Virus record (IMG/VR): IMGVR_UViG_3300020411_000002 | Reading direction: 5' to 3' (one strand) | DNA from: a virus | Taxonomy: Duplodnaviria > Caudoviricetes | Length of the DNA stretch: 64,000 nucleotides | In this document: piece after piece, positions 23,745 to 44,091 of the stretch | How the letters are laid out: every line of letters begins with the position of its first letter | Numbering within the stretch: position 1 is the first letter of the stretch | Program-made: the position numbers and the translations under genes | Notes under the pieces: generated by a model | What the model saw: only the letters and a program-made list of their open reading frames with translations | The model's database searches: none | Told to the model about the DNA's origin: nothing

Positions 23745-24359
23745 CTAAATCGCGATAACTTTACCAGACGTAGGGTTACTAAACGTAACAACCGCAGTGT
23801 TGGTATCGATATGCTGAACTGAATCTGGTTGGATTTCGTAACCATCGACGATGATACGAATACTCGGTTCATAGCCTAACATGTGATTAACATTAACTGT
23901 AGACTTGTTTTCGAACTCCAAAGTATAGCCCACATTAGGCTTAGGTGTTCCATCAAACGCACCAAGTAAACAAATAGCTCGACCGATCATTGGATCATCA
24001 AACTGAATAGTAATCGTGTTATTGTCTGTAGCTTCAAACTCTTTCGGAATAACAACTCTTCCGTTTTCATCAAAGCATTGAACCATGACACTTGTACTGT
24101 TCATGTTATGTGTGACAGTCCATTCAACAGACGGCTCTTGCTGGTCAAAGATGTACGTGTTTAGTTCCTGAGTCATTGGAATCCAAATAGGCGCATCTGC
24201 TAATTCTAAGCAAATCATAACGCGCTTGTCTTTGAATATGAACGTTCCAACTTTAGGTTCTAAAGGCCACTCGCTAACCATTGGGAGTGTTACGTTTTCT
24301 AGAAAGTTTCCTAGTAGATCGAGTCCGCCCATGTGTTTTGTATTTGAATAGTGTCTCAT
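23745..24359 (-). CDS. Structural protein with two WTVxHN-type domains
   Basis: EWTVTHNM...DNNTITIQF and VNVNHMLG...DTNTAVVTF; GGAG SD. Confidence 0.65.
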   Translation of the reverse strand: MRHYSNTKHMGGLDLLGNFLENVTLPMVSEWPLEPKVGTFIFKDKRVMICLELADAPIWIPMTQELNTYIFDQQEPSVEWTVTHNMNSTSVMVQCFDENGRVVIPKEFEATDNNTITIQFDDPMIGRAICLLGAFDGTPKPNVGYTLEFENKSTVNVNHMLGYEPSIRIIVDGYEIQPDSVQHIDTNTAVVTFSNPTSGKVIAI

Positions 24360-28020: not shown

Positions 28021-28952
28021 TCAACTAACACATCTATATCTTCGTGTGCTGCAATGTAATTCTTTTTAAATCCGAGTGAACGCATTCTACTTTTATCTAC
28101 GTACACCCTAAACGGCAGCGGGTTCATATCTTCTGGTTCTTCATTGTTGCTTATAAAGTCATTCACTACAGACCCGTAATCAAGTTGAAGTACCAAGCAC
28201 TCATTGTCTATCTCAGGAAGATAACTAAAGCCTATAGATAGGTGTTTAGAGTTTTTACGTTGCAGTATTTCTTTAATCTCTTTCATCTTAACTATGCTGC
28301 CGAATTCGTCATCAGTTAAGGCCATCATATTATTAATGATTACACCTCTTTGATTCTCGTTGAGCTTAGTTAATAGTGATTCAAGTTGTTTAACACTCGA
28401 TACTTCGAAAGACTTTACTGAACCTGTTATAGACTGCAAACTGTTTTTTAAATTATAGCTGTCTCTTGCAGTCAGTCCTGTAGTGTCATATAGGATATAA
28501 TAGGTATCGGGAAACAAGTTCATAGCCGACACTAAAGACGTTATTTTAAATCCCAAGTTTTCTATTCTGAATAGTCTAGACCTTGGTATGCCGTCAGTAA
28601 AGCTTCTGTTAATGAAGTAAGTTATATTTTTGTATTTTTCAGGGAGTAAAGTTAGTAGATATGACGTAGCATCAACTTCATCTACTATAATCATTTGAGG
28701 GTCTACACGTTGGATATCTAAAGCAACAGAATGCATAAGCTGTTCGCTAGACGTTCCATAATCTCCGTATCCAAGGGTTATGTAAAGTGCGTAAACATCT
28801 TTGTCAGTATTTCTAACAATGTTCGCACTTAGAGGGTGGCTGTAGAAACTTGCTAGAGGTCTACTAGACACCAAGTAAATTGTGTTTATATCATCTACTT
28901 CTTGGGCAGACGAACTTAGTGCTAGTAGTAAACCTGCTAGTAATTTCTTCAT
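28017..28952 (-). CDS. Secreted protein resembling an ABC-type periplasmic substrate-binding protein
   Basis: Sec signal MKKLLAGLLLALSSSA/QE; alternating beta/alpha pattern (IYLVSS, DPQMIIVDE, YYILYD, GVIIN) ending VYVDKSRMRSLGF. Confidence 0.5.
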   Translation of the reverse strand: MKKLLAGLLLALSSSAQEVDDINTIYLVSSRPLASFYSHPLSANIVRNTDKDVYALYITLGYGDYGTSSEQLMHSVALDIQRVDPQMIIVDEVDATSYLLTLLPEKYKNITYFINRSFTDGIPRSRLFRIENLGFKITSLVSAMNLFPDTYYILYDTTGLTARDSYNLKNSLQSITGSVKSFEVSSVKQLESLLTKLNENQRGVIINNMMALTDDEFGSIVKMKEIKEILQRKNSKHLSIGFSYLPEIDNECLVLQLDYGSVVNDFISNNEEPEDMNPLPFRVYVDKSRMRSLGFKKNYIAAHEDIDVLVE

Positions 28953-29830
28953 GCTTTTACCAAAATTGCCTTACCTGCAACATCTTCTGAGAATAGAATA
29001 ACACTAGTATTGTTGCTAGTATTCTGTACGATAGAAGTTTTGACCGGGAACACCTGATCGTTTTCTTCATCGTAGATAGCATATAGAATGTTATCTGTTC
29101 CAAAATTGTGCTCTATAGTCCAAGTGTCAGAAGCTTCTGTCTGCTCATGGATAAAGCTAACTACACCAGAGCCTGTGTTTCCTCCGCTTCCGCCGTCTGA
29201 ACCATCACCAATATCTAAGTTATCTAGTCTATACTTGTTATTACCTGCAAGAGTTTCAACTGCTGATACTCTACGCATAAGACTCATTATAATGGTATAA
29301 AAACCTTGGGTCTGCTGATTAAGTCTAGACGTTAAATAAGATAAAGGTACGACTTCTGTTTGTTGGTAGTTTTCACCAGTTGCTAATGTTCGTGTAGCTA
29401 AGGGTCCTGTAAGAGTGCCGCCAGTTTTATCTAGCTTTGAACTAGTAAGCTCGTCGATGATACTTTCTAGCTCTGCGCTTCCATAAACAGGTTCGGGATT
29501 ATCTTCAGGTGCGTAATACTGTGAAGGTTCGAAGATTTCTGCATACGTGGTAAGTTCTTCCCAAGTGTGCTGTAATCCGCCTGATGAATTCTTAGATGTT
29601 CTTTTAAACGGAATTTTGTAGTCGTCACTTGCTGGATTTCCATCGATCCATGTTACATTAAGAGGTAATATTAGGTAGTGCGGTTCACTGTAGGAAACGA
29701 CAACAATCGTTTCAGTAGAACTAGCTGGCTCTGTTACTCTTAACTTTACAGGGTAGTCAGAAGCAAGGCCTCGCCCTGCTGCTATATCGATGCACTTGTC
29801 AACAAATTCTTGTAGTTGAAGGCCCATCAT
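28949..29830 (-). CDS. Structural fibre protein with C-terminal WTIEHN domain
   Basis: KLDKTGGTLTGPL knuckle, Gly-rich linker, TWTIEHNFG domain. Confidence 0.65.
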   Translation of the reverse strand: MMGLQLQEFVDKCIDIAAGRGLASDYPVKLRVTEPASSTETIVVVSYSEPHYLILPLNVTWIDGNPASDDYKIPFKRTSKNSSGGLQHTWEELTTYAEIFEPSQYYAPEDNPEPVYGSAELESIIDELTSSKLDKTGGTLTGPLATRTLATGENYQQTEVVPLSYLTSRLNQQTQGFYTIIMSLMRRVSAVETLAGNNKYRLDNLDIGDGSDGGSGGNTGSGVVSFIHEQTEASDTWTIEHNFGTDNILYAIYDEENDQVFPVKTSIVQNTSNNTSVILFSEDVAGKAILVKA

Positions 29831-31173: not shown

Positions 31174-31422
31174 CTAGTCCTCAATATTCTCTGGCTCTAA
31201 CCAAAGAGGGTAATCTGGATCGTTTGCATCATGTACATCTGGGTCATGTTCAGGGTTTCTTATTCGAACATTTTCAGGACCCATAACAATCCATTTACTA
31301 TTATCTTCACTACGAACTTTCCAACCTCTGTCATGGAAGTTATCTGTGCTCCACGGGTTGTTTTCGTTATGTCTGTCTCTTACATACATGTGGATTTTCT
31401 TAGGAGACTCAGGCATACTCAT
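31174..31422 (-). CDS. Small adaptor-like protein with VRxxxNxxW repeats
   Basis: MYVRDRHNENNPW, WKVRSEDNSKW; similar to the N-terminus of 34431..38534. Confidence 0.65.
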   Translation of the reverse strand: MSMPESPKKIHMYVRDRHNENNPWSTDNFHDRGWKVRSEDNSKWIVMGPENVRIRNPEHDPDVHDANDPDYPLWLEPENIED

Positions 31423-31910
31423 AGTTTTATATCTACCATAAGAGGTCTGTCATCTATGTTTTCGATAGCAAACCATCCAGTAGAATTAAACTCTACAGTA
31501 TTAGGCTCGTGCCCTGCATAGATAACAGAGTTGTCTTCGTTTCGAATTGCGTAACCACGATTCTCTTTAAAGTCTAATGATACACGACCTGTAGAGAACA
31601 AGCCGATAGACTTGAACTTATCTATACTAGCTGTACCCGATTCTGTTTTAAACTCCATCAGTTGTGAAGAAATAAAATAAGGTACATCGCTTTTGACAGT
31701 AAGAACAAATCTATCGGCAGGCGTGATTTTGAAACAATACGATTCCGCTTTTAATACTAAATTAGAGTTTTGAAGAACAGACTCTACTTGTGTGCTAAAG
31801 CAAATATAAGCATAGCCTGTAAACTTCGGTTTCTCTAATACCATTTGCTTGTTCATTGGAGTAGGAGCAAGCTTTGTATTCCATTGTAAAACGTTATGCA
31901 TATTAATCAT
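31419..31910 (-). CDS. Hypothetical structural protein
   Basis: 163-aa beta-rich ORF overlapping both neighbours. Confidence 0.7.
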   Translation of the reverse strand: MINMHNVLQWNTKLAPTPMNKQMVLEKPKFTGYAYICFSTQVESVLQNSNLVLKAESYCFKITPADRFVLTVKSDVPYFISSQLMEFKTESGTASIDKFKSIGLFSTGRVSLDFKENRGYAIRNEDNSVIYAGHEPNTVEFNSTGWFAIENIDDRPLMVDIKL

Positions 31911-34428
31911 CCGGGCAGTTCAGTAGTGGCTTAGCTTTGTTTCTCGCTTCTGTTTCGTCTGCGGCTTGTATACTGATAGTATCATCAGGTGACTTAGCAC
32001 AATAAGCAGTATAAGTATTTAAAACAGCCTCAGCGATACGGTCGTTAAGAACACTATCTTCTCCCGTAGTATATTCACTGAACGTTTCAAAGCTAGCAGA
32101 CGATACAACGCTAGGTGCAGTAGTTAAGATACCATTGTACCCTGCTTCTGCTGTCGGTGCATTACCAGACTGCTGTGCCGATTCTCCTAGTATACGAACT
32201 ACTGTAACTTTCAAATCTTCAATGTGACTTGGAACAGTTCCGATAGTACTATTCCACGTTGAGCCTTCTTCGGCAGTTACTTCATCTACTTCAATTGTAG
32301 TAGTATTAGCTTCGCTTTCTTTCGGGTGGTTGTCGCTTGCAGAGCTGTATGTATAGAACATAGTTGTAGTAGGATATCCATCTGTGGCATCAGTTATGTA
32401 CAGAATACTTACTTTCTTTTGAGTGGTAGGCACGTTGTCTAAAACATATCTAACGTAAGAAGTAAACATGGATACGGATGCAAACTCACCACCTATAATT
32501 GCATTACTTGGTATTGAGAAGTCATTTAGTATCTGAATTATAGTATCGTCACGAGTTTGTTCAGGTGTCCCATTTAAAGTAATATCACTACCATTCGAAG
32601 TAGAGCCTGACATATCTCGGAAGATATATACTTGAAAGCTTTCGCCCTCACTAGCTAACTCAACTTCCGTAACATCAGGAGTATTATCGACTATTGTAGC
32701 AATGCCCTCCCTTTTGCCTATAGTTCCGATACTAGGATTAGAAATAATAAGCTTGAATGTTTCGTCATGCTCTGGAACGTCATCACACTTGATAACGATA
32801 TCCACCTGCTTAGATGTATCGCCTTCATCAAATGTTACTGTACCTGTTGCTGCCGTAAAGTCGCTACCAGAAGTAGCAGTTATTCCAGTTGTCGAATACT
32901 CTACGGTACGACTATCTCCTATGACTGCTTCACTCGAAGTAATGGTGAACGTAGCTGTAGTATCTGTATCAGAAGCACTACACTCGGCAACGTTGATATC
33001 ATTAACAGAGAATTCAGTTCCGTTATTTACAACTACGCAAGGCATTTCAAAGGTTAGTATTGCATCGTCTGAATCTTCTACGCCTGCTGTAGAGTAATCT
33101 AAATCAGATACTGTGACGTTAACTGTGTAAGGTATCAACTGTCTAGCATCTTCTTCCTTAATAGTGCGAGTAAGTTTGAATATGCCTATACGTCCACCTT
33201 GTTCAACACCTTTAAGTGTTAGTTCTCTGGAAGGACTAGACCATACATACTTATATCGTCTAAGTTGCCAGTCAGGTGGATCAACAAATCTAACTTCAAC
33301 TTTGACTTCTGAAACAAACGTATCGCCTACGTTCAAACATCTATCTTCACATGGAATAATCGGGTCTGGTTCTGGTGGCGGTGGCGGTGGTGGCTCAGGT
33401 GGTTCTGGCTCTGAATACTCTTCTACTGGAACTTTCTTGAAGATTTCTAACCATTGACCTCCTCTTGGGCGCACCGACCAGTACAAAGAAAAAGAACTTC
33501 CTACTACTTCCATCCAGTGATCAGTACCAACTTGATGTGCAAAGCCAGCTCCGTTAGATAACAAAGGCATAAGCTTTTCAGAAAGTATCATGTGACCTTG
33601 TTGGCAAAGCTCATTAGTTTTGTACGTATCAAGAGTAGAGAACATGTATTCACCATCTACAGGCATAGATGCTTTTGATACTGACATTGTGTTAAGAGGA
33701 CCTGAGCCCTTAGATACAGATTTAAACGTGTTATAAAAACCTTTGTCCAAATCGTAGTTCATAGGTCTTCTATAGATTCTATAGATTTTGTGGCTACTTA
33801 CTCTGAACTTAGTTTGTGTCGTTTCTGTAGTTCCAGAAAGATTTATCCAGTCATCCCATCCACTACGGCCCCAGTACTTTATCATTCTATTGCTAAAGTA
33901 CTTAGTTTGCGTATATGCACTTCCGAAGTTATAGAAGATTGTGCCGCTATAATATCTTTCTTGGCTAGACTGATTACATTCTACTACAAACAAATACTCA
34001 TAGTCTTTTTCAAAGTTAGTGATAGTAAGAGTCTTGCCTTGTGTTGTATACCAAAGCTCAAACTCGGCAGTATTATCGGCAGGGTCTAATAGAGAAGTAT
34101 CTGGAACTAAGTTTCTTTCACTTATTCTAACTATTCCACTACCGTCCTTACTTCTGACGAGTCTAAATCTCTTTGTTCCACTTGTAGTTATTTCAGCCGT
34201 AGCTAAGTGGTCAATACCTCCACTAGCTCTCCAACCAATAGTACCACTTGTAGGCTTTTGGAGATCCATATCAGGAGGTATATTTATAAATGTATGACCT
34301 ACTTCATCGTCTTTACTTAGTTCGCGTACTTGTATGCAGTACTCTTTATTCGGGGCCCACTCATAATTAAATGTTTGGACACCCGATGGGTTGTAAAATA
34401 TCTCAACCCACGGGTTCACTTGTGCCAT
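31903..34428 (-). CDS. Adhesin-like virion protein with Pro-rich linker, Calx-beta domain and vWA domain
   Basis: PEPPEPPPPPPPEPDP linker; Calx-beta (FSVNDINVAE...TATSGSDF...GTVTFDEG...DDVPEHDETF, about 32686-33015); MIDAS DMSGS at 32602-32616 plus YITD. Confidence 0.8.
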   Translation of the reverse strand: MAQVNPWVEIFYNPSGVQTFNYEWAPNKEYCIQVRELSKDDEVGHTFINIPPDMDLQKPTSGTIGWRASGGIDHLATAEITTSGTKRFRLVRSKDGSGIVRISERNLVPDTSLLDPADNTAEFELWYTTQGKTLTITNFEKDYEYLFVVECNQSSQERYYSGTIFYNFGSAYTQTKYFSNRMIKYWGRSGWDDWINLSGTTETTQTKFRVSSHKIYRIYRRPMNYDLDKGFYNTFKSVSKGSGPLNTMSVSKASMPVDGEYMFSTLDTYKTNELCQQGHMILSEKLMPLLSNGAGFAHQVGTDHWMEVVGSSFSLYWSVRPRGGQWLEIFKKVPVEEYSEPEPPEPPPPPPPEPDPIIPCEDRCLNVGDTFVSEVKVEVRFVDPPDWQLRRYKYVWSSPSRELTLKGVEQGGRIGIFKLTRTIKEEDARQLIPYTVNVTVSDLDYSTAGVEDSDDAILTFEMPCVVVNNGTEFSVNDINVAECSASDTDTTATFTITSSEAVIGDSRTVEYSTTGITATSGSDFTAATGTVTFDEGDTSKQVDIVIKCDDVPEHDETFKLIISNPSIGTIGKREGIATIVDNTPDVTEVELASEGESFQVYIFRDMSGSTSNGSDITLNGTPEQTRDDTIIQILNDFSIPSNAIIGGEFASVSMFTSYVRYVLDNVPTTQKKVSILYITDATDGYPTTTMFYTYSSASDNHPKESEANTTTIEVDEVTAEEGSTWNSTIGTVPSHIEDLKVTVVRILGESAQQSGNAPTAEAGYNGILTTAPSVVSSASFETFSEYTTGEDSVLNDRIAEAVLNTYTAYCAKSPDDTISIQAADETEARNKAKPLLNCPDD

Positions 34429-34430
34429 AC

Positions 34431-37400
34431 TTATACCTTTCGATTGACTGTATCTACGTTGTGTACTAGGAAAGGATTTCTACCAACGTAGTAAGAATCA
34501 CTTTCTTCAACGTCTATACAGACTACATCAATCGGATCATCTACGCGTGTTAAAGAACCTACAAGAACTTCTTCTTTGTCTCCATAACAAGAAAGAAGTA
34601 CATCGCCTACTTTCATATCCCTAACGTCCATCCACTGCCAAGTGTCATCGCGTTTAACAAAGATAAGGTGTTCTTGGGTTATTTCAACATCACCATTAAT
34701 AATCCAATATTCTCTAAACCAATCGTGTTTGATTGCTCGAATTGTACTAACTACAGGATAACGTCCGTTTATGTCTTTAGTAGTCCAGTCTTCCCAACCA
34801 TCTACGTTTTCATCAATCATATTAGGAATGAATTCACTAACGAGTCGGTCACCTACTTTAAGTCTTTCTGCGTTAATAGATTTTCCATCTTCTAGCACGA
34901 CCATCGTACCAAAAGATATACAACCACCACCGCCACCACCTGAATAAACTTGTGCTTTCTGCTGTAAGCTTACTTCAATAGGTGCAGACTTTTGTACGTT
35001 ACCCAAGTCGTCTTTAACAAATATCTCTACTGTTAAATTGGCAATTCCTGCTAAACTTGAATTAGAAACCGCACGTTCAAACTGAATACTCATGCACTGA
35101 TTATTAGCGCCGTAGTTTGAAACACTATTAGGTACATCGGCTGTTTCTTTAGATTCATCAAAAGCACAATACGGCTTTATCGATACGCGAGACCCTGGGA
35201 TTGAATTGTTAACTGTAACAACGTTCCACTTATAGGTGTAAGAACGCGCTGGGTCAAATTCAAATTCCGCTAATAGTCTGCTAGTCCAATTAGTGCCTGC
35301 TGCTTTGTCGTCAACTCCACTTGTAGCGCTGTCCGCAGTTTTAGACATAGTAAAGCAAGCTACCTTTCCATTGTCTTGTGCATACTGAGGAACACCGTCA
35401 CCTAAGTCACCGTCAGTGCCCCAATCCATATCCAACTTATTAGAGTTAATCTTGAAAGCTAGAATAGTTTCAGGGTGTGCGTACTTAGTTGCAGTAACTT
35501 TTGCAGTACCAGTACTTCTAAGAGTTCCAGTATATACAATGTTCATATCTCCTTGAACAGGGGCAGATGATTCTACAATAGTAGCAATGCCTTCATCTTG
35601 AATGATAGCACCAACGCTTGCATCGTAGATGATAACTTTAAACTGTTCATTCGGGTCACGTTCACTATCAGCAAAAGTATTAATGCTAATAGTACCACTG
35701 CCTGCACCTGCTGGAATAGTAAGACTTCCAGATTTAGATTGATAATCTGCATTTGATGTAGGAGTAGACGGGCTTCCATCTGAACCAGTATTAGCTAGCG
35801 TAAAGTTTGTCATACGCTTAACACCGCTCTGGTTTTCGAAAGAACTAGACCCAGACAAGTCTTCAAACAGATAGCTGTCACCTGCTTTGTCTTTTATTTG
35901 CTGAACAGAAACACTACGCGCACCAGACGGGCTAGATACGGTAGAGTCAGACGCTGGAATATCTACCAAGCTCTTAATGTTGAAAGAGTTGATAAGGTCT
36001 TTAGCGTGAGCGTTAGCAAATCTGTAGTAGTTGCCTGCGGTACTTATATCAAATGCTGCTGCACTGATCACTACCATAGGCTTAGAACCTTTAGCTGCTC
36101 TCGCTACTGCAACACCAAACGCTGTACCTTGTTCAAGATTAAACATCTTGTTCAAGAAGTGATTAGAAGTATCTACTCCTGCGTTTTCTTTAGCGTGGTG
36201 TCTCCATTCTCCAAACTGGTCAGATACAATAATGTCATAGTTACCTACTACGTTTTTAGGTGAACTATAAGTTGCATCTTGGTACGAGTAGCTACCTTGC
36301 TTGACAGTTCCATGTGCATCAAACTCATTGACTACGTGAACATCAACCTGAATACCGTAAATGTTTGCCAGTGACTTAGTGAAGAAGTCCATAACAGTAG
36401 ACATTTGGTAAACGATTTCATATTCACGCTCATTTACTCTTGGATCAGGGTCATAGGGTGTAGAGTAAGATTGAATACGCTGGTGGGTTACTACCAATAG
36501 CTTTTTACCAGATAAAGAACCAAGACGGTGCTTTAACATATTAACAATCATCTTTTGGTAATCGTTAAGTTCTTCGAATGTAGAAACGCTACGGTCAACA
36601 TCCCTATTTGCATCAGTTCCATTGTATGCAGTAACTGTCTCTAGATAGTTTTCAACATCGTAAAGTCTGTGTGGGTCTGCTTCTAACATTAACGTATAGC
36701 CGTCAGTATCGTTAGAGTAAACAACTGTAGAAACATGATTACTATCTCTGAATAACGGATATGGATTAACTTCACCTGCTGCAACGGCTTCGCTGCTAGC
36801 AGTCATATCTTCCGTTCTATAGTTCAAAGACAAGTCTTCATTGATTGGATAGTTAAGACCTACTGTAAATTTAGCTGTAGAGCCTTCCGCTACTGTAATA
36901 CTATTAATAGCTATTTGAACATCAGGACAATTTGGAACTTCCTGATCATCAATCTCTACATCTAAGAGAGGAATATAACAGCCAACCCAATAAGCCCAAC
37001 TACTGTCAATAGGGCAATCGATACGTACACTGATTTCTCGCAAGTCATCGTAGTCCGCACTTTCTTCTAGTCTAAACCACTGTAAGAAAGTTGTACCTCT
37101 GCTTCGTTTAGCAGTTACTAACTTTCCTTTCTTGTTGAATACGCTAGCTGTATACGTAAAGTCTCCATAACCAGTAACTTTAATTGAAGCTACGCCGTTA
37201 TCGAGGTCGTTCATTAAGTAGTGGTCTTCTGTACTGTGGTGTCCAGCACTGTTTATGCCTGACTCTGGTACTTCACAAGGCCAACGATTCTCTTTGTACC
37301 CGCGAGTATTTGGATCATAAAGCATGTACTCTTGCGAAAGCACATCTGACCCGTACTCCCGTTGACTTGCCATTACTTTAACTACGATATCAGGAACAGC

Positions 37401-38534
37401 GTTTGCAAATCTCCAAGGGTCAAACACAATAGACAAAAGCCCATCTGTGTCTTTATTTCCCATAGTTGAAGCAATACGTTCACCGCCATGATAGACTTCA
37501 ACCCAGTCTGCATTTTCCCAAGTCTCGTAGTTAAGATGAAGAACATAAGGGCCTGTAGCAGGGTCAACTAGTCCAACTGTGTGAACGTACTCTACCCAAT
37601 ATTGTCCATCTGTGATTCTGTTCTCAAATGGAGTTACACGGCTATGAGCAGGTGCTGGAAACAAGCTAGTACCAATATACTCAGTAGTACGAATTTGTGC
37701 TAAATGTCTATTGTTGCCCGGCTCAAAGTCTTGAAGCGTAAGAAACGATTTAGGACCTATAGCAGAATACATCCATCTGCATTTGTCTTCACCACGAACA
37801 CGAATCATTACTCTATCTTCACCAGAACCGATTGCAGGGTCTAGACCGAACTCTAGTTTTCCTCTACCAGTAACTCTGCCGCATGTGGAAGCAATTAAAG
37901 CACCAAGATAATATACGTCAATAGAGATACCTTGTTCGTGGTAGCAAGCGTAAAGAATTTCAAAGATACCACCTCTATCACCTAACTCATAAATAGTTTC
38001 AGTTATTGCACTACCATTAGAGAAAGTATGCGTAGACAGGTAACTAGGATTCTCGTAACTTCCTCTACCAAGAAAAGAGTTAGTGCCCGGATTAGTATAA
38101 GTTTCTTTTGTGTTTTCAATTCCGGGTCTGTTAATTACTTGACCTTCATAAGTACCATAAGCACGTTCTAGACCAAAGCCTGCTTGACCTGCATCTGGTA
38201 AGTCGTAACCTTCTGGATATCCACGTAGTATGTCAAATTCGTTTCCACCACTACCGCTACCATCACCAGAACCTGCTTCTGTAATAGGAATAGAGTTAGA
38301 ACAAGTAAGAGAAGTAAGCATAGCTAGGTTAGCACAAGGGTCATCTAGCACATCGTCAAAAGTACAGTCCACCTGCATCCAAGTGTTGTTTCCGCTATCT
38401 CTTACTTGCGTTTGGTCTGGATAGAAACGAATCCACGTACTATTAAAGCCGTCGCGAAAATAGAACTCGCTGCTGCATTGGTCGAGCCAACCGTTATCTT
38501 GTGCATTACGAACTGTTAGTCTTGTAGTTGTCAT
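34431..38534 (-). CDS. 1367-aa adhesin/receptor-binding protein with split Calx-beta and C-terminal Hint domain
   Basis: N-terminal R-x6-W repeats, three beta-sandwich repeats, interrupted Calx-beta, SGGGGGG-C Hint domain ending VHN-VDTVNRKV. Confidence 0.8.
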   Translation of the reverse strand: MTTTRLTVRNAQDNGWLDQCSSEFYFRDGFNSTWIRFYPDQTQVRDSGNNTWMQVDCTFDDVLDDPCANLAMLTSLTCSNSIPITEAGSGDGSGSGGNEFDILRGYPEGYDLPDAGQAGFGLERAYGTYEGQVINRPGIENTKETYTNPGTNSFLGRGSYENPSYLSTHTFSNGSAITETIYELGDRGGIFEILYACYHEQGISIDVYYLGALIASTCGRVTGRGKLEFGLDPAIGSGEDRVMIRVRGEDKCRWMYSAIGPKSFLTLQDFEPGNNRHLAQIRTTEYIGTSLFPAPAHSRVTPFENRITDGQYWVEYVHTVGLVDPATGPYVLHLNYETWENADWVEVYHGGERIASTMGNKDTDGLLSIVFDPWRFANAVPDIVVKVMASQREYGSDVLSQEYMLYDPNTRGYKENRWPCEVPESGINSAGHHSTEDHYLMNDLDNGVASIKVTGYGDFTYTASVFNKKGKLVTAKRSRGTTFLQWFRLEESADYDDLREISVRIDCPIDSSWAYWVGCYIPLLDVEIDDQEVPNCPDVQIAINSITVAEGSTAKFTVGLNYPINEDLSLNYRTEDMTASSEAVAAGEVNPYPLFRDSNHVSTVVYSNDTDGYTLMLEADPHRLYDVENYLETVTAYNGTDANRDVDRSVSTFEELNDYQKMIVNMLKHRLGSLSGKKLLVVTHQRIQSYSTPYDPDPRVNEREYEIVYQMSTVMDFFTKSLANIYGIQVDVHVVNEFDAHGTVKQGSYSYQDATYSSPKNVVGNYDIIVSDQFGEWRHHAKENAGVDTSNHFLNKMFNLEQGTAFGVAVARAAKGSKPMVVISAAAFDISTAGNYYRFANAHAKDLINSFNIKSLVDIPASDSTVSSPSGARSVSVQQIKDKAGDSYLFEDLSGSSSFENQSGVKRMTNFTLANTGSDGSPSTPTSNADYQSKSGSLTIPAGAGSGTISINTFADSERDPNEQFKVIIYDASVGAIIQDEGIATIVESSAPVQGDMNIVYTGTLRSTGTAKVTATKYAHPETILAFKINSNKLDMDWGTDGDLGDGVPQYAQDNGKVACFTMSKTADSATSGVDDKAAGTNWTSRLLAEFEFDPARSYTYKWNVVTVNNSIPGSRVSIKPYCAFDESKETADVPNSVSNYGANNQCMSIQFERAVSNSSLAGIANLTVEIFVKDDLGNVQKSAPIEVSLQQKAQVYSGGGGGGCISFGTMVVLEDGKSINAERLKVGDRLVSEFIPNMIDENVDGWEDWTTKDINGRYPVVSTIRAIKHDWFREYWIINGDVEITQEHLIFVKRDDTWQWMDVRDMKVGDVLLSCYGDKEEVLVGSLTRVDDPIDVVCIDVEESDSYYVGRNPFLVHNVDTVNRKV
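34458..34922 (-). other. Hint (intein-like) domain 1, 155 aa
   Basis: CISFGT...LKVGD, block B TQEH, DVEESDSYY, LVHN; +1 residue Val; no endonuclease. Confidence 0.9.
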
Positions 38535-38543
38535 AGCACTACC

Positions 38544-39038
38544 TTAGCGAGGTTTAATCCATAAAGCACCAGCACCAACAGGACCTGGGTCTTCTGTAGT
38601 TATATAGATACTTACTTTACCATCTAATCCATGTTCGCCTTGAGGTCCAGTAGCACCAATAGGTCCCTGCTCCCCTTGCTTTCCTTGCGCACCACGAACA
38701 CCACGTTCTCCAACTGGGCCACGAGGACCTCTACATCCACGTTCACCACGCAATCCATTTTCACCAAGAAGTCCATTAATACCAGCGTTACCAGAAACAC
38801 CTTGAGGCCCTTCTTTACCAGTACCAACATCACTTTGAGTCATAAAGTTATTGATACGTAGAACAGGATAGCCTGGGATGCTTAGCGTAAGAGTACCAGA
38901 CGTATTATCGTAGTAACCTTCTAACGTGTCTGCTACTTCATCATCTGTTACAATAGACAAACCTCTACCAGAAGATTCTACATTACCTACAGTAGAACCA
39001 CCACTAATCATGTTCAAGTTAGCTTTTGTAATAGCCAT
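38544..39038 (-). CDS. Short collagen-like fibre protein
   Basis: MAITKANLNMI, YYDNTSGTLTL domain, Gly-X-Y run, ends EDPGPVGAGALWIKPR. Confidence 0.8.
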   Translation of the reverse strand: MAITKANLNMISGGSTVGNVESSGRGLSIVTDDEVADTLEGYYDNTSGTLTLSIPGYPVLRINNFMTQSDVGTGKEGPQGVSGNAGINGLLGENGLRGERGCRGPRGPVGERGVRGAQGKQGEQGPIGATGPQGEHGLDGKVSIYITTEDPGPVGAGALWIKPR

Positions 39039-39050
39039 AATAAGTCTCTC

Positions 39051-39686
39051 TTAAAATTGGTCTAAGTCATCATCGTACTGACCGATATCTGGATTTACCC
39101 AAATAGAGCCAGGTCCTATGCTAGAGCCAGGGTCTGTACTACTAATAACTATGTTGATGTTTCCAGCAGGGCCTTGCTCTCCACGTGGGCCAGTAGGACC
39201 TGTAGCACCAGTAGGTCCAGTTGGGCCTACATCACCACGCTCACCTTTCTTTCCTTGCAGTCCACGTGGGCCCATAGGTCCAGCACATCCAGCAGGACCT
39301 GGAAGTCCAACTTGTCCATCACGACCATTCTGTCCATCTTCACCACGAGGGCCTGTAGGTCCAATAGGTCCAATACAGCCTTCGTCACCAACTTCTCCAT
39401 CTTTACCATCGCGTCCATCACGACCATCTTCGCCAGCTTCTCCTTGAGGACCTTGCTGACCCTGAGGAATGCTATCGAATGTAGGAAAGCCAGTAATAGC
39501 AATCTCATTACCGCTAGCAAATGTTAGAGTAAGAATGCCGCTTCCTTGGTCATAAAATCCAGCTTCGATTTCGCTGGTGGTGTCAACTGCTTCGCTAGAC
39601 GTAGCAAGCTTTCCGTTTTTGACAACTACACTACTGCCTTCGTCACCTGATGACCGTACCATAGTTACAGGAATTTTTGTAAGCAT
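39051..39686 (-). CDS. Collagen-like fibre protein
   Basis: MLTKIPVTMV, FYDQGSGILTL domain, long Gly-X-Y run, ends TDPGSSIGPGSIWVNP. Confidence 0.8.
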   Translation of the reverse strand: MLTKIPVTMVRSSGDEGSSVVVKNGKLATSSEAVDTTSEIEAGFYDQGSGILTLTFASGNEIAITGFPTFDSIPQGQQGPQGEAGEDGRDGRDGKDGEVGDEGCIGPIGPTGPRGEDGQNGRDGQVGLPGPAGCAGPMGPRGLQGKKGERGDVGPTGPTGATGPTGPRGEQGPAGNINIVISSTDPGSSIGPGSIWVNPDIGQYDDDLDQF

Positions 39687-39688
39687 AA

Positions 39689-40150
39689 TTAAACCCTGTT
39701 ATGTACTAAAATGCCATTTAGAAAATATGTATCACACATATCAACCTTTAGCTCGAATGTTTGTACACTAACTTCTATAAAAGAAATTGTCTCTACTTGA
39801 AATTGCGTAGAGTGTCCAAACATAACATCACCTTTTTGAATTTGTGGAGGCTTTTTCCATTCCCAAAAATCATTACGCTTGATTAAAATGGGTTGGTCGG
39901 CTACAAAGTGCATCAAGTTTATTTTATAGTATCCACTACGTATAAATATTTCGCGGTCTATAACAGTGCCTTCAATAACTTTTCCTTGAACGTCTTTTGT
40001 AGCCCATTCCATAGCGAACTCTTGATTACCAAATCTAGAACTAGGCATAGCACCTATTCTTAATGCAGTAATCTGATCGCCTACGAATACATCTTGTGTA
40101 TTCTTACTTTTAAGAGTATCTGTTCCTGTAGTAATCCTTTGCTTAATCAT
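39689..40150 (-). CDS. Stand-alone Hint-domain protein lacking Cys1 and block-B TxxH
   Basis: VFVGD, IQKGD, KVDMCDTYFLNGILVHN-RV; TAATG coupling to the upstream gene. Confidence 0.85.
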   Translation of the reverse strand: MIKQRITTGTDTLKSKNTQDVFVGDQITALRIGAMPSSRFGNQEFAMEWATKDVQGKVIEGTVIDREIFIRSGYYKINLMHFVADQPILIKRNDFWEWKKPPQIQKGDVMFGHSTQFQVETISFIEVSVQTFELKVDMCDTYFLNGILVHNRV

Positions 40151-41661
40151 TAGTGCTTAACCGTTTGTGTTGTGTTATGGACAACAATAGGCTCATGTCC
40201 GGCAAAGTAGTTATCGTATGGTTCAACGTCTAGTACGACAACATTGAGATTTTCTTTAACTTGATCGATAGACTTGATTTCAATAACTCCATCTGTACCT
40301 TTAAGAAAGTCACCAACTTTAATGTCAGTCGCATCATACCAACCCCACTGCTGATTCTTTCTAACTAGAACAGGGTGGTCTTGGGTAATACATACGTCAT
40401 TGTTAATCTTCCAATACTGAGTGTAGCTAGCATTGTAAGCAACTCGCGCTGTAGTAGGTACAATCTTCGGATTCTTGAACTCTGTAGTCTTCCAATCTTT
40501 CCAATTTCTTTCGTCTTCGTCTAGCATTCCTGTCGAAGTAAAGGACTGTAGAGTATCGCCTACTTTAACATATTTAGCTCGTTTAGTACTTCCATCCCAC
40601 ATAAGAATTGGAGTATCTTCGTGTACACAACCACCGCCACCAACTATGATAGGACCTCCAGGCTCAGTCTCTTCACTATTATCTCTGCTGTTGTAACCTG
40701 AGAAAGAGAAGCGAATATTCTTGATAGACAAACGTTTATTGTTATCGCCTCTATCTGTAATAACGAGTTCCATCTTACCAGAAAAGCTATAGCTTTGTTG
40801 AGGTTGAATAGTACGTAATGCAGCAATCTTTAGTGAACGTGACGTAGTAGAACCGTCAATAGAAATTCCAGCTTCACGCATACTGTTATCAGTATCGACC
40901 CACTTGTAACTGAAAGGACCTATTCCACCTTCAAAGTTCGTTAATGAAAGAATAGCGTTACCGCCGTAAGAATCATCAGTAACGTGAGCTAGTCTAACAC
41001 TAACATCTGTTACTTGTCCTGACATTGGATCAGCTTCTACTATCGGTGAGGGAAGAGAAGTGCCACTAGGTCGCGCCCAAAGAAAGTAGTTTGAGTCTGG
41101 TGCGTTCTCTCCATAGTATACTGTTTCCGCTGGTTTGATTCCTTGTATACCACGTTCACCAACTATACAGCTAGGCCCAGCAGGTCCAACAGGTCCCATG
41201 TTACCAACGTCACCATCTTCACCAGTGTCTCCACGCAATCCAATAGGACCGGGACACCCCATATATCCAGTAACACCAGTTTCACCATCATTACCATCTA
41301 GACCTTTATTGCCAGCTTCACCAGTAGGTCCAATCGGTCCTTCGCATCCAGTCTTTCCTTTCTTACCATCACGACCAATTCTACCATCACGACCTTTCTT
41401 GCCAGCAGGGCCTTTATCTCCACGAGGACCTTCACCCATCTGACCGAGCGTTAAGAATCCAGACACCTCTACAACTTCACCATTATGTCTGACAAAGTTG
41501 AGTGTGCCTGTTCTCTTGTTGAATCCGATTTGTGCAATAGCTCTTTCGCTAACAGGTTGTTCTGAACTGTATGCTAAACTTTTTAGGGAATCAGTCTTTA
41601 AACTAGTTCCCTCTTTATTCTTGCTAGGTACAAGACTTTTAATGTTAGCTTCTTGTGCCAT
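40150..41661 (-). CDS. Collagen-like fibre protein with C-terminal Hint domain
   Basis: FNKRTGTLNF domain, Gly-X-Y run, beta domain, IVGGGG-CVHEDT...TQDH...VVHN-TTQTVKH. Confidence 0.85.
   Translation of the reverse strand: MAQEANIKSLVPSKNKEGTSLKTDSLKSLAYSSEQPVSERAIAQIGFNKRTGTLNFVRHNGEVVEVSGFLTLGQMGEGPRGDKGPAGKKGRDGRIGRDGKKGKTGCEGPIGPTGEAGNKGLDGNDGETGVTGYMGCPGPIGLRGDTGEDGDVGNMGPVGPAGPSCIVGERGIQGIKPAETVYYGENAPDSNYFLWARPSGTSLPSPIVEADPMSGQVTDVSVRLAHVTDDSYGGNAILSLTNFEGGIGPFSYKWVDTDNSMREAGISIDGSTTSRSLKIAALRTIQPQQSYSFSGKMELVITDRGDNNKRLSIKNIRFSFSGYNSRDNSEETEPGGPIIVGGGGCVHEDTPILMWDGSTKRAKYVKVGDTLQSFTSTGMLDEDERNWKDWKTTEFKNPKIVPTTARVAYNASYTQYWKINNDVCITQDHPVLVRKNQQWGWYDATDIKVGDFLKGTDGVIEIKSIDQVKENLNVVVLDVEPYDNYFAGHEPIVVHNTTQTVKH
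40174..40629 (-). other. Hint (intein-like) domain 2, 152 aa
   Basis: Cys1, TQDH, DVEPYDNYF, VVHN with +1 Thr; no endonuclease. Confidence 0.9.
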
Positions 41662-41664
41662 ACG

Positions 41665-44091
41665 TTACCCCAAATTAGGCGATACATCGACTACCAAGTT
41701 AATCGTTAGTGCTGAACCATAATCACTTACGCGACCGTTACGTACACGCATTTTAGCAACTATCTCAATAGCACCAGTTGGGTTATTAGCTTTCAATACG
41801 TTCCAGCTTTGAGTAATTGATTTATCTGCATAGGCATACGTGCCTTGCTGTTCTGGATTAGTTACATTGAAACCACTGCTACCAGTACCTTTAATGTTTC
41901 TACCATATTCAGGTTCGTTAAGGCTGTGCGTTCTAAATCCAAGAACAAATTCAATGTTCTCTAATCCATTAGCTGACGTAAAGCCGGGACCTAGTCTAGC
42001 ATTGAAGTCTGCTGTAGCTTTAACAATAACATCACCTTTAAAGTTCACACGTTGAGTATAGATAATCTCTTCCGCGTTAACTATTCTGTGTTGGTTATTG
42101 AACACAACAGGTTTGTCTTTTGCTATTTGCTGACTTAGTTTAGATTCAATCGTGTACTCAGGAAAAGTACCAGAAACTTTAATACCCGTTCCACCTATCA
42201 TATTGAATCGAGGAACTGGAATACGTAAAGGTTCTAAGTTGTGACGTACAAGCTCAATACTCTTAGACGTTACTAACGCATCAGTAACAACACCTTGGAT
42301 ACTGCTATCAGGATTGCCTTGGCTTAGTACGTTTCTGAATATCTGAACTTCGATTTCTTGATTCGCATCAATGTCTCTGCGGAAAATCAAACGGTCATCT
42401 ACAATATCGTACAAGCTACGATTAGCGTGAAGACCTTGTTCAGAAACAAACACTAGACCCTTATCTTGGGGACTGAATGGTAGTTGAAGAACACGCGTCA
42501 GGTCTTTAGTGACATAGTTCTGAGTGTGAACATGAGTTGCATACCCACGAACTTCTTGTGTAATGAACGCATTGATTTCTACAAGTAACCCTTGTGCAGG
42601 TGCAGTAGTGAAAACAATCTTTTGATTATCTTCATCGATAACGTAGTTGTTTATGCTCTGCAAGAAAGGGTCTACGTATACCAGACACTGACTAGAACTA
42701 GTTATCTTTTCTTCACCTACTACAGGGATATCGAATTCAGTTTGATTACCATCTGCAATGTATTCTGCATAACGAATATTTAGCAAAGCACCTGTACTTG
42801 GAGTAAGCGTAAACAAACGCGCATCAATTTGGGTTTCACTAGGTAAGTCTTCTGAGAATTCAATTGCGTTTTCTGTAATCTCAAAAGCTTCTCTGTGTTG
42901 TGTGACGCCGCCAAGTGCTACCATTGCATAGTTGTTATTCTTAGCATGGCTGTAGTAATGAATTTGGGCTTTCTGACTCTGTACTTGCGACAAATCTTTT
43001 TGATAGAGAACAAATGTACGAGAACCTGCTGCGTCCTCTGGCTCTGTTACATAAGCACTCATTTTTAATGTGCCGGGCGGGTGGTACAACGTACTACCAT
43101 TACCAGAAGCTTTTAGTGGAGGCACCCAACGTGGACTAGTAACCCCACGCTCTAATACATAGTTAGACGGTACTTCTTCGTTTAACCAACTTAATGACGT
43201 AGCGCCGTAGTTGCCTGAACGTGGATACCAGATTGAAATAACGCTGGTATCTGATAGCGCACTAAATCCAGTTCCTTTAGCAATGTATGCAATGTTATCA
43301 CCGTTCTGAGTAGCATCGAAGATACGAGTCTCACCAGCCCCAGGTCCTTGAATAACTTGCACTACAACTACATCGCCAGCTTGTACGTTACCAAGTTCGC
43401 TAGCATCAGGCTGTTTGAATTCCGTTTCGTCGTAAACGTTTTCGTATCCAACTTCACCGTTAAAGATTCTAGTATATCCAGAGAAGCCCCAATGTGCGCC
43501 TCCAGGTCCGAACTTCTGAGCAATGCCGGGTACTGCGTTTCCATCTAGCGACCATTCAAGTGTCTGTACACCAACTGCATTTGCAATAGCACTAACAGGG
43601 CTAGGTAAGTCTTCAACTGTAGGTACAGATGGGATAGAACCAAACTCAGATAACGTTACATCAATAGTGCCTGCTTCTACTTCGCTAATGTGCAGCATAG
43701 CTTCAATGCGAATTGATTCGGCAGACGACTTAACGTAAGGCTCAGAATAAACACAATGACCTAGCACTGTGTTGTCTTCTAATAAAACAACTAGCTCACC
43801 AATAGTGATAGAGCTAGTTGCGTTTGCATCAGGTATACCTTGTGGAATATCTAATGTGAATCTAACTGTATTTTCTGACAATACTTGTACGTAAGAAATG
43901 TTACCTGTATAGACAGTGTTGCTTACGAGGTTGTCTGGGATACCACCCTCTTGTTCGTAGAAGTCTTCAACGTCTGATACTTCTAAATCACCTAGCTTGA
44001 ATGCTTTAGGGGCGACACGAATGCCACCCGCATCTGCATTAAGAAGTGATTGACGACCTGCTTCTGTTAAGTGAATTATGTTTGGTGTCAT
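41665..44091 (-). CDS. Baseplate-attached tail fibre protein (P2 gpH/DUF3751-like N-terminus)
   Basis: IHLTEAGRQSLLNA...FKLGD N-terminus; internal repeats of DGNQTEF...LVYVD...IVFTTAP..G..VEI type. Confidence 0.7.
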   Translation of the reverse strand: MTPNIIHLTEAGRQSLLNADAGGIRVAPKAFKLGDLEVSDVEDFYEQEGGIPDNLVSNTVYTGNISYVQVLSENTVRFTLDIPQGIPDANATSSITIGELVVLLEDNTVLGHCVYSEPYVKSSAESIRIEAMLHISEVEAGTIDVTLSEFGSIPSVPTVEDLPSPVSAIANAVGVQTLEWSLDGNAVPGIAQKFGPGGAHWGFSGYTRIFNGEVGYENVYDETEFKQPDASELGNVQAGDVVVVQVIQGPGAGETRIFDATQNGDNIAYIAKGTGFSALSDTSVISIWYPRSGNYGATSLSWLNEEVPSNYVLERGVTSPRWVPPLKASGNGSTLYHPPGTLKMSAYVTEPEDAAGSRTFVLYQKDLSQVQSQKAQIHYYSHAKNNNYAMVALGGVTQHREAFEITENAIEFSEDLPSETQIDARLFTLTPSTGALLNIRYAEYIADGNQTEFDIPVVGEEKITSSSQCLVYVDPFLQSINNYVIDEDNQKIVFTTAPAQGLLVEINAFITQEVRGYATHVHTQNYVTKDLTRVLQLPFSPQDKGLVFVSEQGLHANRSLYDIVDDRLIFRRDIDANQEIEVQIFRNVLSQGNPDSSIQGVVTDALVTSKSIELVRHNLEPLRIPVPRFNMIGGTGIKVSGTFPEYTIESKLSQQIAKDKPVVFNNQHRIVNAEEIIYTQRVNFKGDVIVKATADFNARLGPGFTSANGLENIEFVLGFRTHSLNEPEYGRNIKGTGSSGFNVTNPEQQGTYAYADKSITQSWNVLKANNPTGAIEIVAKMRVRNGRVSDYGSALTINLVVDVSPNLG

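What the first reader, a model, noticed from the sequence alone, without database searches (positions are those of the whole stretch)
34431..41661. Hint-domain fibre maturation system: three paralogous intein-like domains in one fibre module
Seen: two fibre proteins end in poly-Gly-Cys-Hint-HN plus only 7-8 residues, and a stand-alone Hint lies between them. All three lack endonucleases and share a distinctive insert (IDENVDGWEDWTTKD / LDEDERNWKDWKTTE / FAMEWATKD), so they are one co-opted family, not invading inteins. Established: Hint domains (Hedgehog, bacterial intein-like domains) form a Cys1 thioester that is cleaved or transferred to a nucleophile. Inference: the phage uses Hints as cleavable assembly chaperones, a functional analogue of the S74 intramolecular chaperone, and/or to ligate fibre tips. 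I cannot confirm novelty without a literature search.
Basis: partly seen in the sequence, partly recalled or inferred. Interest (0 to 1): 0.9.

Follow-up and report, generated by a model that had tools for sequence, protein, structure and literature searches.

The report
Self-removing intein-like caps on phage fibres
Two tail-fibre-module proteins of this giant phage end in a small intein-like (Hint/BIL) domain that most likely cuts itself off after translation, and a third, catalytically dead free-standing copy lies between them; the domain family is large and has not been studied, though it is already flagged in database annotations and this scan has met it before on other phages.

Summary
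The minus-strand fibre module of this jumbo myophage (closest relative: Phage NCTB) has three homologous Hint domains of about 150 aa. Two are at the extreme C-terminus, behind a Gly run: a 503-aa collagen-like fibre and a 1367-aa Calx-beta protein. Both keep Cys1, TxxH and His-Asn and end in a 7-8-residue tail. The third is free-standing.

- The free-standing copy has no Cys1, no TxxH and no tail lysine. It is nevertheless under purifying selection (dN/dS 0.06), and its position is conserved in three or more lineages.
- The "insert" motif occurs across the whole family, not just in these three copies.
- The three copies are not each other's closest relatives.

The family is large: 1079 cluster representatives at E<=1e-10. 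Of the best 150, 120 are C-terminal caps on varied fibre- or adhesin-like proteins. The short tail holds a lysine in 112 of 116 cases, against 25-42 expected. The nearest solved structures are bacterial intein-like domains: 2LWY, and the isopeptide-forming Tetrahymena BIL2.

Best reading: self-excising BIL-type caps. Self-cleavage, a chaperone role and lysine ligation are all inferred, not shown. NCTB and Yoloswag annotators already wrote "intein domain", and this scan found the same family earlier on other phages. No paper on it was found.

The parts
40150..41661 (-). 503-aa collagen-like fibre protein (P0001): conserved fibre N-terminus, G-X-Y repeats at residues 78-164, a globular part, then a Gly run, the Hint domain and a short tail
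   Evidence: Pfam Collagen 4.9e-15; phrog_38766 'virion structural protein' 2e-68 over residues 28-498.
40174..40629 (-). Hint/BIL domain of P0001, Cys345 to Asn496, preceded by GGGG. Block B reads ITQDH and block G reads VVHN.
   Evidence: Model pLDDT 93.1. Top PDB folds are 6Y75 at 3.7e-9 and 2LWY at 6.9e-9.
40153..40173 (-). 7-residue tail TTQTVKH after the Hint Asn; holds one lysine
39689..40150 (-). 153-aa free-standing Hint paralogue (P0002). Met1 sits at the start of the domain, so there is no Cys1. Block B is FVADQ instead of T..H. Block F and His-Asn are kept. The tail is RV, with no lysine. Its start overlaps the stop of P0001 (TAATG).
   Evidence: Model pLDDT 91.4 with BIL top hits. 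dN/dS is 0.057 against L003. Orthologues occur in NCTB, L003 and L025 at the same position.
39051..39686 (-). 211-aa collagen-like fibre protein without a Hint
38544..39038 (-). 164-aa collagen-like fibre protein without a Hint
34431..38534 (-). 1367-aa fibre-module protein (P0003): N-terminal 535 aa match phrog_26008, then a Calx-beta domain, then a Gly run, the Hint and a short tail
   Evidence: The Erwinia-phage homologues are about 670 aa and lack the Hint.
34458..34922 (-). Hint/BIL domain of P0003, Cys1205 to Asn1359, preceded by GGGGGG. Block B reads ITQEH and block G reads LVHN.
34434..34457 (-). 8-residue tail VDTVNRKV after the Hint Asn; holds one lysine
41665..44091 (-). 808-aa conserved module protein directly upstream (phrog_21488; weak matches to tail-fibre N-terminal families). 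Context only.
31903..34428 (-). 841-aa Calx-beta protein directly downstream. Context only; no Hint.

Best explanation
The two C-terminal domains are active autoprocessing Hint domains, closest to A-type bacterial intein-like (BIL) domains.

Proposed course:
1. After translation, and probably after or during fibre folding, Cys1 attacks the preceding Gly carbonyl (N-S acyl shift, helped by the block-B Thr and His).
2. The thioester is then resolved, either by water or by the lysine of the cap's own short tail.
3. The terminal Asn cyclises, helped by the penultimate His.
4. The roughly 150-aa domain leaves, and the mature protein ends in a Gly run.

The likely purpose is to aid or check folding and assembly of the fibre tip. 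That would make the cap a functional analogue of C-terminal intramolecular chaperones.

The free-standing third copy is a catalytically dead paralogue that the phage keeps. This shows that the fold has a use that does not depend on cleavage, most likely as a non-covalent assembly factor for the module.

Shown here: homology, fold, position, conservation of the catalytic set, the tail lysine, purifying selection and synteny. Inferred: every chemical step, the timing, and the assembly role.
For: Fold and nearest relatives:
- Model pLDDT is 93.1.
- By fold, BUBL BIL2 (6Y75) and C. thermocellum BIL (2LWY) rank first, ahead of inteins and Hedgehog.
- By profile, 2LWY scores 7.5e-15 and 6TMM 4.4e-13.

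Catalytic set, among the 150 best of 5757 family representatives:
- Cys1 in 129; the rest appear to be truncated gene calls.
- Block-B Thr in 140 and His in 142.
- Block-G His in 142 and Asn in 143.
- Gly at -1 in 83. A Gly run of at least 3 precedes Cys1 in 47 of 129.

Position:
- 120 of 150 have the domain at the extreme C-terminus.
- The N-terminal partners are diverse: collagen, fn3, Calx-beta, Ig, PKD and tail-fibre PHROGs.

Tail:
- 112 of 116 short tails hold a lysine. Composition predicts 24, random internal peptides give at most 42, and C-termini of phage ORFs give a mean of 41.5 and at most 57.
- The +1 residue is mostly non-nucleophilic (A 31, K 17, V 11).

Dead copy:
- It lacks Cys1, block-B T/H and the tail lysine, but keeps block F and His-Asn.
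- dN/dS is 0.057, from 12 synonymous and 3 non-synonymous changes.
- It is an intact 152-153-aa ORF in NCTB and L025, directly behind the collagen-Hint gene.

The module order is conserved across NCTB, Yoloswag, AD1, SNUABM_16 and the Yersinia phage.
Against: - There is no protein-level evidence. I found no virion mass-spectrometry data for any homologue. 'Virion structural protein' in RefSeq says nothing about processing.
- The Erwinia phages assemble the two short collagen fibres, and a shorter homologue of the 1367-aa protein, without the free-standing Hint or the second cap. Neither is therefore generally required.
- A Hint that only needs to leave would not need a conserved tail lysine. 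Plain hydrolysis may be the wrong chemistry.
- The predicted Hint homotrimer gave no answer.
- dN/dS rests on only 15 substitutions.
- The model of the dead copy used an alignment made mostly of catalytic relatives.
Confidence: 0.6

Rival explanations
1. Lysine-directed isopeptide splicing is the point of the system. The Gly-Cys thioester is attacked by the epsilon-amine of the lysine in the cap's own short tail, or by a lysine of another virion protein. After Asn cyclisation, the fibre's C-terminal glycine carries an isopeptide-linked peptide or partner. This would be an ATP-free chemistry like that of the Tetrahymena BUBL BIL2 domain.
For: - 112 of 116 short tails hold a lysine, usually exactly one, while Arg is rare (13 in all tails).
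- The +1 residue is not enriched for Cys, Ser or Thr.
- His-Asn is conserved even though the tail is too short to be a functional extein.
- BIL2, which forms a Lys-epsilon isopeptide (PMC8616854, section 2.4), is the top structural match.
- The domain follows a Gly run, as BIL2 follows a ubiquitin-like Gly-Gly end.
- Two of the three dead free-standing lineages have also lost the lysine; their tail is RV.
Against: - The lysine's position varies from +1 to +11, with no fixed neighbours.
- The NCTB dead copy still has a lysine (tail KVD).
- Lysine could matter for other reasons, such as the rate of Asn cyclisation, solubility or charge at the C-terminus.
- No product has been observed.
- It is unclear what a 7-residue peptide on the fibre end would achieve.
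Confidence: 0.3
2. The Hint domains are not removed. They stay on the virion as the distal tip or receptor-binding knob, and the conserved 'catalytic' residues are structural.
For: - The free-standing dead copy shows that the fold can be useful without N-terminal catalysis.
- Homologues are annotated 'virion structural protein'.
Against: - Cys1, T..H and H-N are each kept in more than 90% of representatives that share only 30-50% identity. That is the pattern of an active site, not of a scaffold.
- A receptor-binding tip would be expected to be the most variable part. Here the Hint is as conserved as the rest of the protein (53% against 53-56% identity to NCTB).
Confidence: 0.08
3. The domains are selfish or neutral passengers: BIL elements that ride in hypervariable fibre genes and merely avoid harm by cutting themselves off. 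The free-standing copy would be a decaying remnant.
For: - BIL domains were first described in hypervariable regions of non-conserved proteins (review PMC7765530, section 3).
- The three copies lie far apart on the family tree, and the cap of the Erwinia positional orthologue groups elsewhere. That fits movement of the caps with fibre cassettes.
- 26 of 150 relatives carry two or more Hints, some in tandem.
Against: - There is no endonuclease or other means of mobility.
- The position is conserved between the window and NCTB at about 55% protein identity.
- The 'remnant' is an intact ORF of the same length in three or more lineages, with dN/dS 0.057.
- The family-wide tail lysine points to selected chemistry.
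Confidence: 0.07

Closest known systems
A-type bacterial intein-like (BIL) domains (Amitai et al. 2003; Dassa et al. 2004, as summarised in PMC7765530; structure 2LWY, Clostridium thermocellum)
   Same: Hint fold of about 140-150 aa with no endonuclease. Has Cys1, block-B T..H and a C-terminal His-Asn. Sits in non-conserved, variable extracellular-type proteins. The C-flanking residue need not be a nucleophile. Best sequence-profile match (7.5e-15) and second-best fold match.
   Different: Usually at the very C-terminus (120 of the best 150), followed only by a 1-16-residue lysine-bearing tail. Carried by phage fibre-module proteins. Has a family-specific M.DE....W..W.T motif and a longer beta-hairpin. 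Falls below the Pfam gathering scores for every Hint model.
BIL2 domain of the Tetrahymena thermophila BUBL1 polyubiquitin-like locus (PDB 6Y75, 6TMM; Chiarini et al. 2021, described in PMC8616854)
   Same: Top structural match (3.7e-9, TM 0.69-0.79). Follows a Gly-ended domain. Documented to pass the upstream C-terminus to a lysine epsilon-amine, which would explain the conserved tail lysine here.
   Different: BIL2 is flanked by ubiquitin-like domains in a eukaryote, and its lysine acceptor lies in a folded downstream domain. Here there are no ubiquitin-like domains, only a short tail, and no product has been shown. Sequence identity is 18-19%.
Peptidase S74 C-terminal intramolecular chaperone of phage tailspikes and fibres (endosialidase, T5 pb1 type)
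   Same: A C-terminal module on trimeric phage fibres that is expected to remove itself after assembly. Free-standing and fused chaperone versions both exist among phage fibres (PMC10579305).
   Different: Unrelated fold and chemistry: a Ser-Lys dyad against a Cys thioester with Asn cyclisation. There is no S74 match in any protein of the module. The similarity is one of role only, and that role is inferred.
Hedgehog C-terminal autoprocessing (Hog) domain (PDB 1AT0)
   Same: A Hint at the C-terminus of a secreted or structural protein. Cleavage at a Gly-Cys junction through a thioester that is handed to a nucleophile.
   Different: Hog has a sterol-recognition region after the Hint and lacks the terminal His-Asn. 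Here there are 7-8 residues and a conserved His-Asn. 1AT0 ranks only 40th by fold.
Canonical homing intein, for example the one in this window's own terminase large subunit (5338-6756)
   Same: Hint fold, Cys1 and His-Asn.
   Different: The terminase intein is 473 aa with a LAGLIDADG endonuclease and a +1 Cys, and it interrupts a conserved enzyme. The fibre Hints are 152-155 aa, terminal, and have no extein to ligate.

Membership tests
Hint (Hedgehog/intein) superfamily | Horseshoe-like all-beta Hint fold | tested here: met
   Models have pLDDT 93.1 and 91.4. 61 and 46 PDB matches at E<=1e-3; all 50 listed for each model are inteins, BILs or Hedgehog.
Hint (Hedgehog/intein) superfamily | N-terminal Cys/Ser nucleophile and block-B T-x-x-H | tested here: met
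   Met for P0001 (C345, ITQDH) and P0003 (C1205, ITQEH). Not met for the free-standing P0002 (no Cys; V..Q).
A-type BIL domain | Conserved C-terminal His-Asn, no endonuclease, and a C-flank without an obligatory nucleophile | tested here: met
   His-Asn is present in all three copies and in 142-143 of 150 relatives. The domains are 152-155 aa. The +1 residue is variable.
A-type BIL domain | Located in variable, non-conserved proteins rather than at conserved sites of essential enzymes | tested here: met
   The N-terminal partners of 91 relatives are diverse. The Erwinia homologue of P0003 lacks the Hint altogether.
A-type BIL domain | Sequence membership in the curated BIL A-type motif set | tested here: inconclusive
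   The best PDB profile match is the C. thermocellum BIL, 2LWY. However, no curated BIL model is in the libraries available, and the Pfam Hint models score below their cut-offs.
A-type BIL domain | Demonstrated self-cleavage at the N- and/or C-terminal junction | not testable with these tools
   Needs expression and mass spectrometry.
Canonical (class 1) intein | A +1 Cys/Ser/Thr and a functional C-extein that is ligated to the N-extein | tested here: not met
   The tails are 7 and 8 residues. The +1 residue is Thr in P0001 but Val in P0003. In the family, only 13 of 116 have S or T at +1.
Hedgehog Hog domain | Sterol-recognition region after the Hint, and no terminal His-Asn | tested here: not met
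   Only 7-8 residues follow the Hint, and His-Asn is conserved.
Pretoxin-HINT (PF07591) of polymorphic toxins | Hint followed by a C-terminal toxin domain, with a score above the Pfam cut-off | tested here: not met
   P0003 scores 23.7 bits against a cut-off of 27.7. No domain follows the Hint.
Peptidase S74 intramolecular chaperone | S74 fold with a Ser-Lys dyad | tested here: not met
   No PF13884 match in any module protein at E<=0.01. The fold is Hint.

The most novel reading that the evidence does not exclude
The caps are not simple self-cleaving chaperones. They would be enzyme-free ligases: each converts the fibre's C-terminal glycine into a thioester and passes it to a lysine, either the one kept in its own short tail or one on another virion component. 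The result would be an isopeptide-capped or cross-linked fibre tip, a phage counterpart of the BUBL/ubiquitin-like Gly-Lys chemistry. The conserved dead free-standing Hint would then be a non-catalytic adaptor that has kept the binding surface of the family.
Probability: 0.25. Interest if true: 0.85.

Novelty: new variant of a known kind. Interest (0 to 1): 0.6.

Why it matters
Phage fibres decide host range, and how their tips fold and mature is known for only a few chaperone types. Here a large family of intein-like end caps sits on fibre and adhesin-like proteins: more than a thousand cluster representatives at 50% identity. It has a fully conserved active site and an almost invariant tail lysine, and I found no paper on it.

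If the caps cleave, they are a second, chemically different route to self-removing fibre chaperones. If they ligate to lysine, they are a natural ATP-free protein-ligation device of practical interest.

This window adds a natural control. A catalytically dead, free-standing paralogue has been kept by selection beside two active copies, and a classical homing intein lies in the same genome for contrast.

Tried and rejected
- Predicted homotrimer of the Hint domain: score 0.00, verdict 'no answer'. This is not evidence either way.
- Megablast of the module against the phage records: no match. Relatives appear only at protein level.
- Ten literature searches found no paper on C-terminal Hint caps of phage fibres and no virion proteomics for a homologue. 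The hits were terminase or RNR inteins, polymorphic-toxin Hints, and S74-type chaperones.
- The word-based search with the free-standing copy found only its own 97%-identical cluster. The type looks rare, but the search is insensitive.
- I considered and rejected the following:
  - P0001 and P0002 as one protein joined by readthrough. The stop is TAA, and P0002 is in another frame with a 1-nt overlap.
  - The three copies as a recent local triplication.
  - A specific link to collagen. Only 9-11 of about 100 relatives have collagen repeats.
Full report
**What is there**

The window comes from a jumbo myophage of the PaBG/Lu11/NCTB/Erwinia-Dickeya group. Its nearest record is Phage NCTB, at 41-70% protein identity across the module (group named in PMC7412058).

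Genes 50393 down to about 29840 on the minus strand form a baseplate-and-fibre module. In order:
- baseplate wedge
- a 1600-aa tail protein
- an 808-aa protein
- a 503-aa collagen-like fibre (P0001)
- a 153-aa protein (P0002)
- two short collagen fibres (211 and 164 aa)
- a 1367-aa Calx-beta protein (P0003)
- an 841-aa Calx-beta protein
- small ORFs
- a 280-aa collagen fibre with a gp53-like end

The same order is found in NCTB, Yoloswag, AD1, SNUABM_16 and Yersinia phage fHe-Yen9-02.

**Checking the observation**

- P0001 ends ...PIIVGGGG-C345 ... H495-N496-TTQTVKH.
- P0003 ends ...VYSGGGGGG-C1205 ... H1358-N1359-VDTVNRKV.
- The two domains share 37% identity (BLASTP 2e-34).
- P0002 matches P0003's domain at 3e-13.
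- A family HMM run on all six frames of the window finds these three and nothing else.
- Pfam sees only sub-threshold matches: Intein_splicing at 29.8 bits against a cut-off of 35.8, and PT-HINT at 23.7 against 27.7. It sees nothing significant in P0002. NCBIfam has no match.
- An AlphaFold2 model of P0001 335-503, built on a 71-sequence alignment, has pLDDT 93.1.
- Its best PDB folds are the Tetrahymena BUBL BIL2 domain (6Y75, 3.7e-9) and the C. thermocellum BIL domain (2LWY, 6.9e-9). Mini-inteins follow, and Hedgehog 1AT0 ranks 40th.
- A sequence profile gives the same order: 2LWY at 7.5e-15 and 6TMM at 4.4e-13.

The domains are therefore real Hint domains of the BIL kind, each 152-155 aa, with no room for an endonuclease.

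1. P0002 is not a potential thioester former.
   - Its Met1 lies at the start of the domain, so it has neither Cys1 nor an N-extein.
   - Block B reads FVADQ where the active copies read ITQDH and ITQEH.
   - The tail is RV, with no lysine.
   - Block F and His-Asn are kept.
2. The 'distinctive insert' is in the consensus of the whole family (GM.DE....W..W.T). It identifies the family, not a local trio.
3. On a family tree, each window copy pairs with its NCTB positional orthologue (SH-aLRT 96-99). The three copies lie in different parts of the tree, among metagenomic relatives.
   - They are therefore old paralogues, or were acquired separately with their fibre cassettes.
   - This was a quick tree with many open forks, so only the pairings are firm.
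4. P0003 is not a collagen fibre.

**The family**

A profile of the three copies was searched against 1.84 billion cluster representatives. It found 5757 proteins at E<=1e-3, 1079 at E<=1e-10 and 52 at E<=1e-30. Among the best 150:

- 120 carry the domain at the extreme C-terminus, in proteins of 133 to 3105 aa.
- Cys1 is present in 129. The remainder mostly start inside the domain and look like truncated gene calls.
- Gly is at -1 in 83.
- Block-B Thr is in 140 and His in 142. Block-G His is in 142 and Asn in 143.
- A Gly run of three or more precedes Cys1 in 47 of 129, and 48% of residues -6 to -1 are Gly.
- The parts upstream of the cap are diverse: collagen in 9 of 91, plus fn3, Calx-beta, Ig-like, PKD, Listeria-Bacteroides repeat, and many tail-fibre PHROGs.
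- Caps also occur in unrelated phage contigs, such as a high-GC contig (L004) and 343-373-kb phages (L005-L008).

This pattern is terminal in four out of five of the closest relatives, has no endonuclease, and shows no conserved +1 nucleophile. It is not that of homing inteins. The window's own terminase shows what a homing intein looks like: 473 aa, a LAGLIDADG domain, and HN followed by Cys.

**The tail lysine**

I tested this on my own set.

| Set | Tails with a lysine, out of 116 |
|---|---|
| Observed (tails of 1-16 residues) | 112 |
| Expected from composition | 24 |
| Random internal peptides of the same proteins | mean 25, maximum 42 in 1000 draws |
| True C-termini of 137 phage ORFs | mean 41.5, maximum 57 in 2000 draws |

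- There are 116 lysines in the 116 tails, but only 13 arginines.
- The +1 residue is Ala in 31, Lys in 17 and Val in 11. Ser plus Thr account for only 13.
- Both active copies here fit the pattern (TTQTVKH and VDTVNRKV), as do NCTB, the Erwinia phages, L004, L005 and L025.
- Two of the four lysine-free tails belong to homologues of the dead copy P0002.
- The representatives share at most 50% identity, so the count is not driven by near-duplicates.

**The free-standing copy**

- P0002 is an intact ORF of 152-153 aa in the window, in a 95%-identical IMG/VR contig (L003), in a third lineage (L025, protein P0019, 59% identity) and in NCTB (41% identity).
- In each it lies directly behind the collagen-Hint gene, and in L025 and NCTB it is followed by a fibre gene.
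- Against L003 it shows 12 synonymous and 3 non-synonymous changes, giving dN/dS 0.057. That matches the neighbouring P0001 at 0.065.
- It has diverged faster from NCTB than the active caps have (41% against 53% identity).
- Its model is a confident Hint fold (pLDDT 91.4) with the same BIL top hits. The supporting alignment was mostly catalytic relatives.
- It is therefore a maintained, non-catalytic Hint. The type is rare: only P0019 and a fragment (P0073) among the best 150, and only its own cluster in a word-based search.
- The Erwinia, Dickeya and Yersinia phages lack it, yet they have the same two short collagen fibres. It is therefore not a general requirement for those fibres.
- 26 of the 150 relatives carry two or more Hints, several directly in tandem with a lysine in the linker (for example HN-K-A-G-C). 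P0001 plus P0002 looks like such a tandem pair split into two genes, with the second Hint's Cys position taken by the start codon. This is an inference.

**How it most likely works**

From the established chemistry of Hint domains (reviewed in PMC7765530 and PMC8616854), the conserved set predicts three steps:
- an N-S acyl shift at Gly-Cys
- resolution of the thioester
- Asn cyclisation, which releases the tail

The outcome would be a fibre protein ending in a Gly run and a free domain of about 17 kDa.

Two questions stay open: whether the thioester is resolved by water or by the tail lysine, and whether the cap helps folding or trimerisation before it leaves. The conserved lysine and the BIL2 precedent favour some role for aminolysis. 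The dead but selected copy favours a non-chemical role for the fold, such as binding or assembly. The two are compatible. My one computational test of a chaperone-like property, a predicted Hint homotrimer, gave no answer.

**Novelty**

- At annotation level this is known. NCTB's depositors wrote 'putative phage tail protein, contains intein domain', 'intein domain protein' and 'large intein domain protein'. Yoloswag has 'putative large intein domain protein'. PHROG 38766 covers the whole P0001.
- This scan has reported the same family on other phages (e1-3473109, e1-4038022, e1-4038776, e1-3420492, e1-4018845, e1-3661677).
- I rate it a new variant of a known kind: a BIL domain in a terminal, lysine-tailed, phage-fibre setting.
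- What this window adds is three copies in one module, one of them a conserved dead paralogue, beside a classical intein in the same genome.

Noticed in passing
window 5047-8559 (+), intein at about 5338-6756: The terminase large subunit carries a classical 473-aa intein (residues 98-570). It has a LAGLIDADG endonuclease domain, starts with Cys, and ends HN followed by Cys. This makes a useful internal contrast to the fibre Hints. Terminase inteins are reported for this phage group in PMC7412058.
   Followed up: partly
family representatives P0007, P0008, P0021, P0077, P0121, P0135, P0151 and others: 26 of the 150 closest family members carry two to four Hints. Several are directly in tandem, with a lysine-bearing linker of 3-10 residues (for example HN-K-A-G-C and HN-MKSGGGGGGG-C). 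Others are spaced through giant proteins of 1.2-3.4 thousand residues, like polyprotein processing sites. Their meaning is unexplained.
   Followed up: partly
window 34431-38534 against L002 12430-14451 and L022 12583-14607: The Erwinia and Dickeya homologues of the 1367-aa protein are only about 670 aa. They share the N-terminal 535 residues (phrog_26008) and lack the Calx-beta part and the Hint. Yoloswag's label 'putative large intein domain protein' is therefore probably a name copied from NCTB rather than a real domain.
   Followed up: partly
window 31174-31422 (-) and L002 17376-17582: A small ORF (82 aa here, 68 aa in Yoloswag, where it is noted as 'contains intein domain') precedes the last pair of fibre genes. 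The two are weakly similar (BLASTP 3e-5).
   Followed up: yes
window 28949-29830 (-) and 23745-24359 (-): Two HNH-endonuclease-like genes (phrog_24148 and phrog_21918) flank the end of the fibre module, as in the Erwinia relatives. The second shares a segment with the neighbouring 569-aa virion protein (phrog_16122).
   Followed up: no
L004 2395-3489 (IMG/VR contig 3300031999_005821): An unrelated high-GC phage contig has a 364-aa Ig-repeat protein ending in the same kind of Hint (DGC ... HN). Its tail is unusually long at 24 residues (NFFKSVFRF...). The gene lies next to a collagen-like fibre and a portal gene.
   Followed up: no
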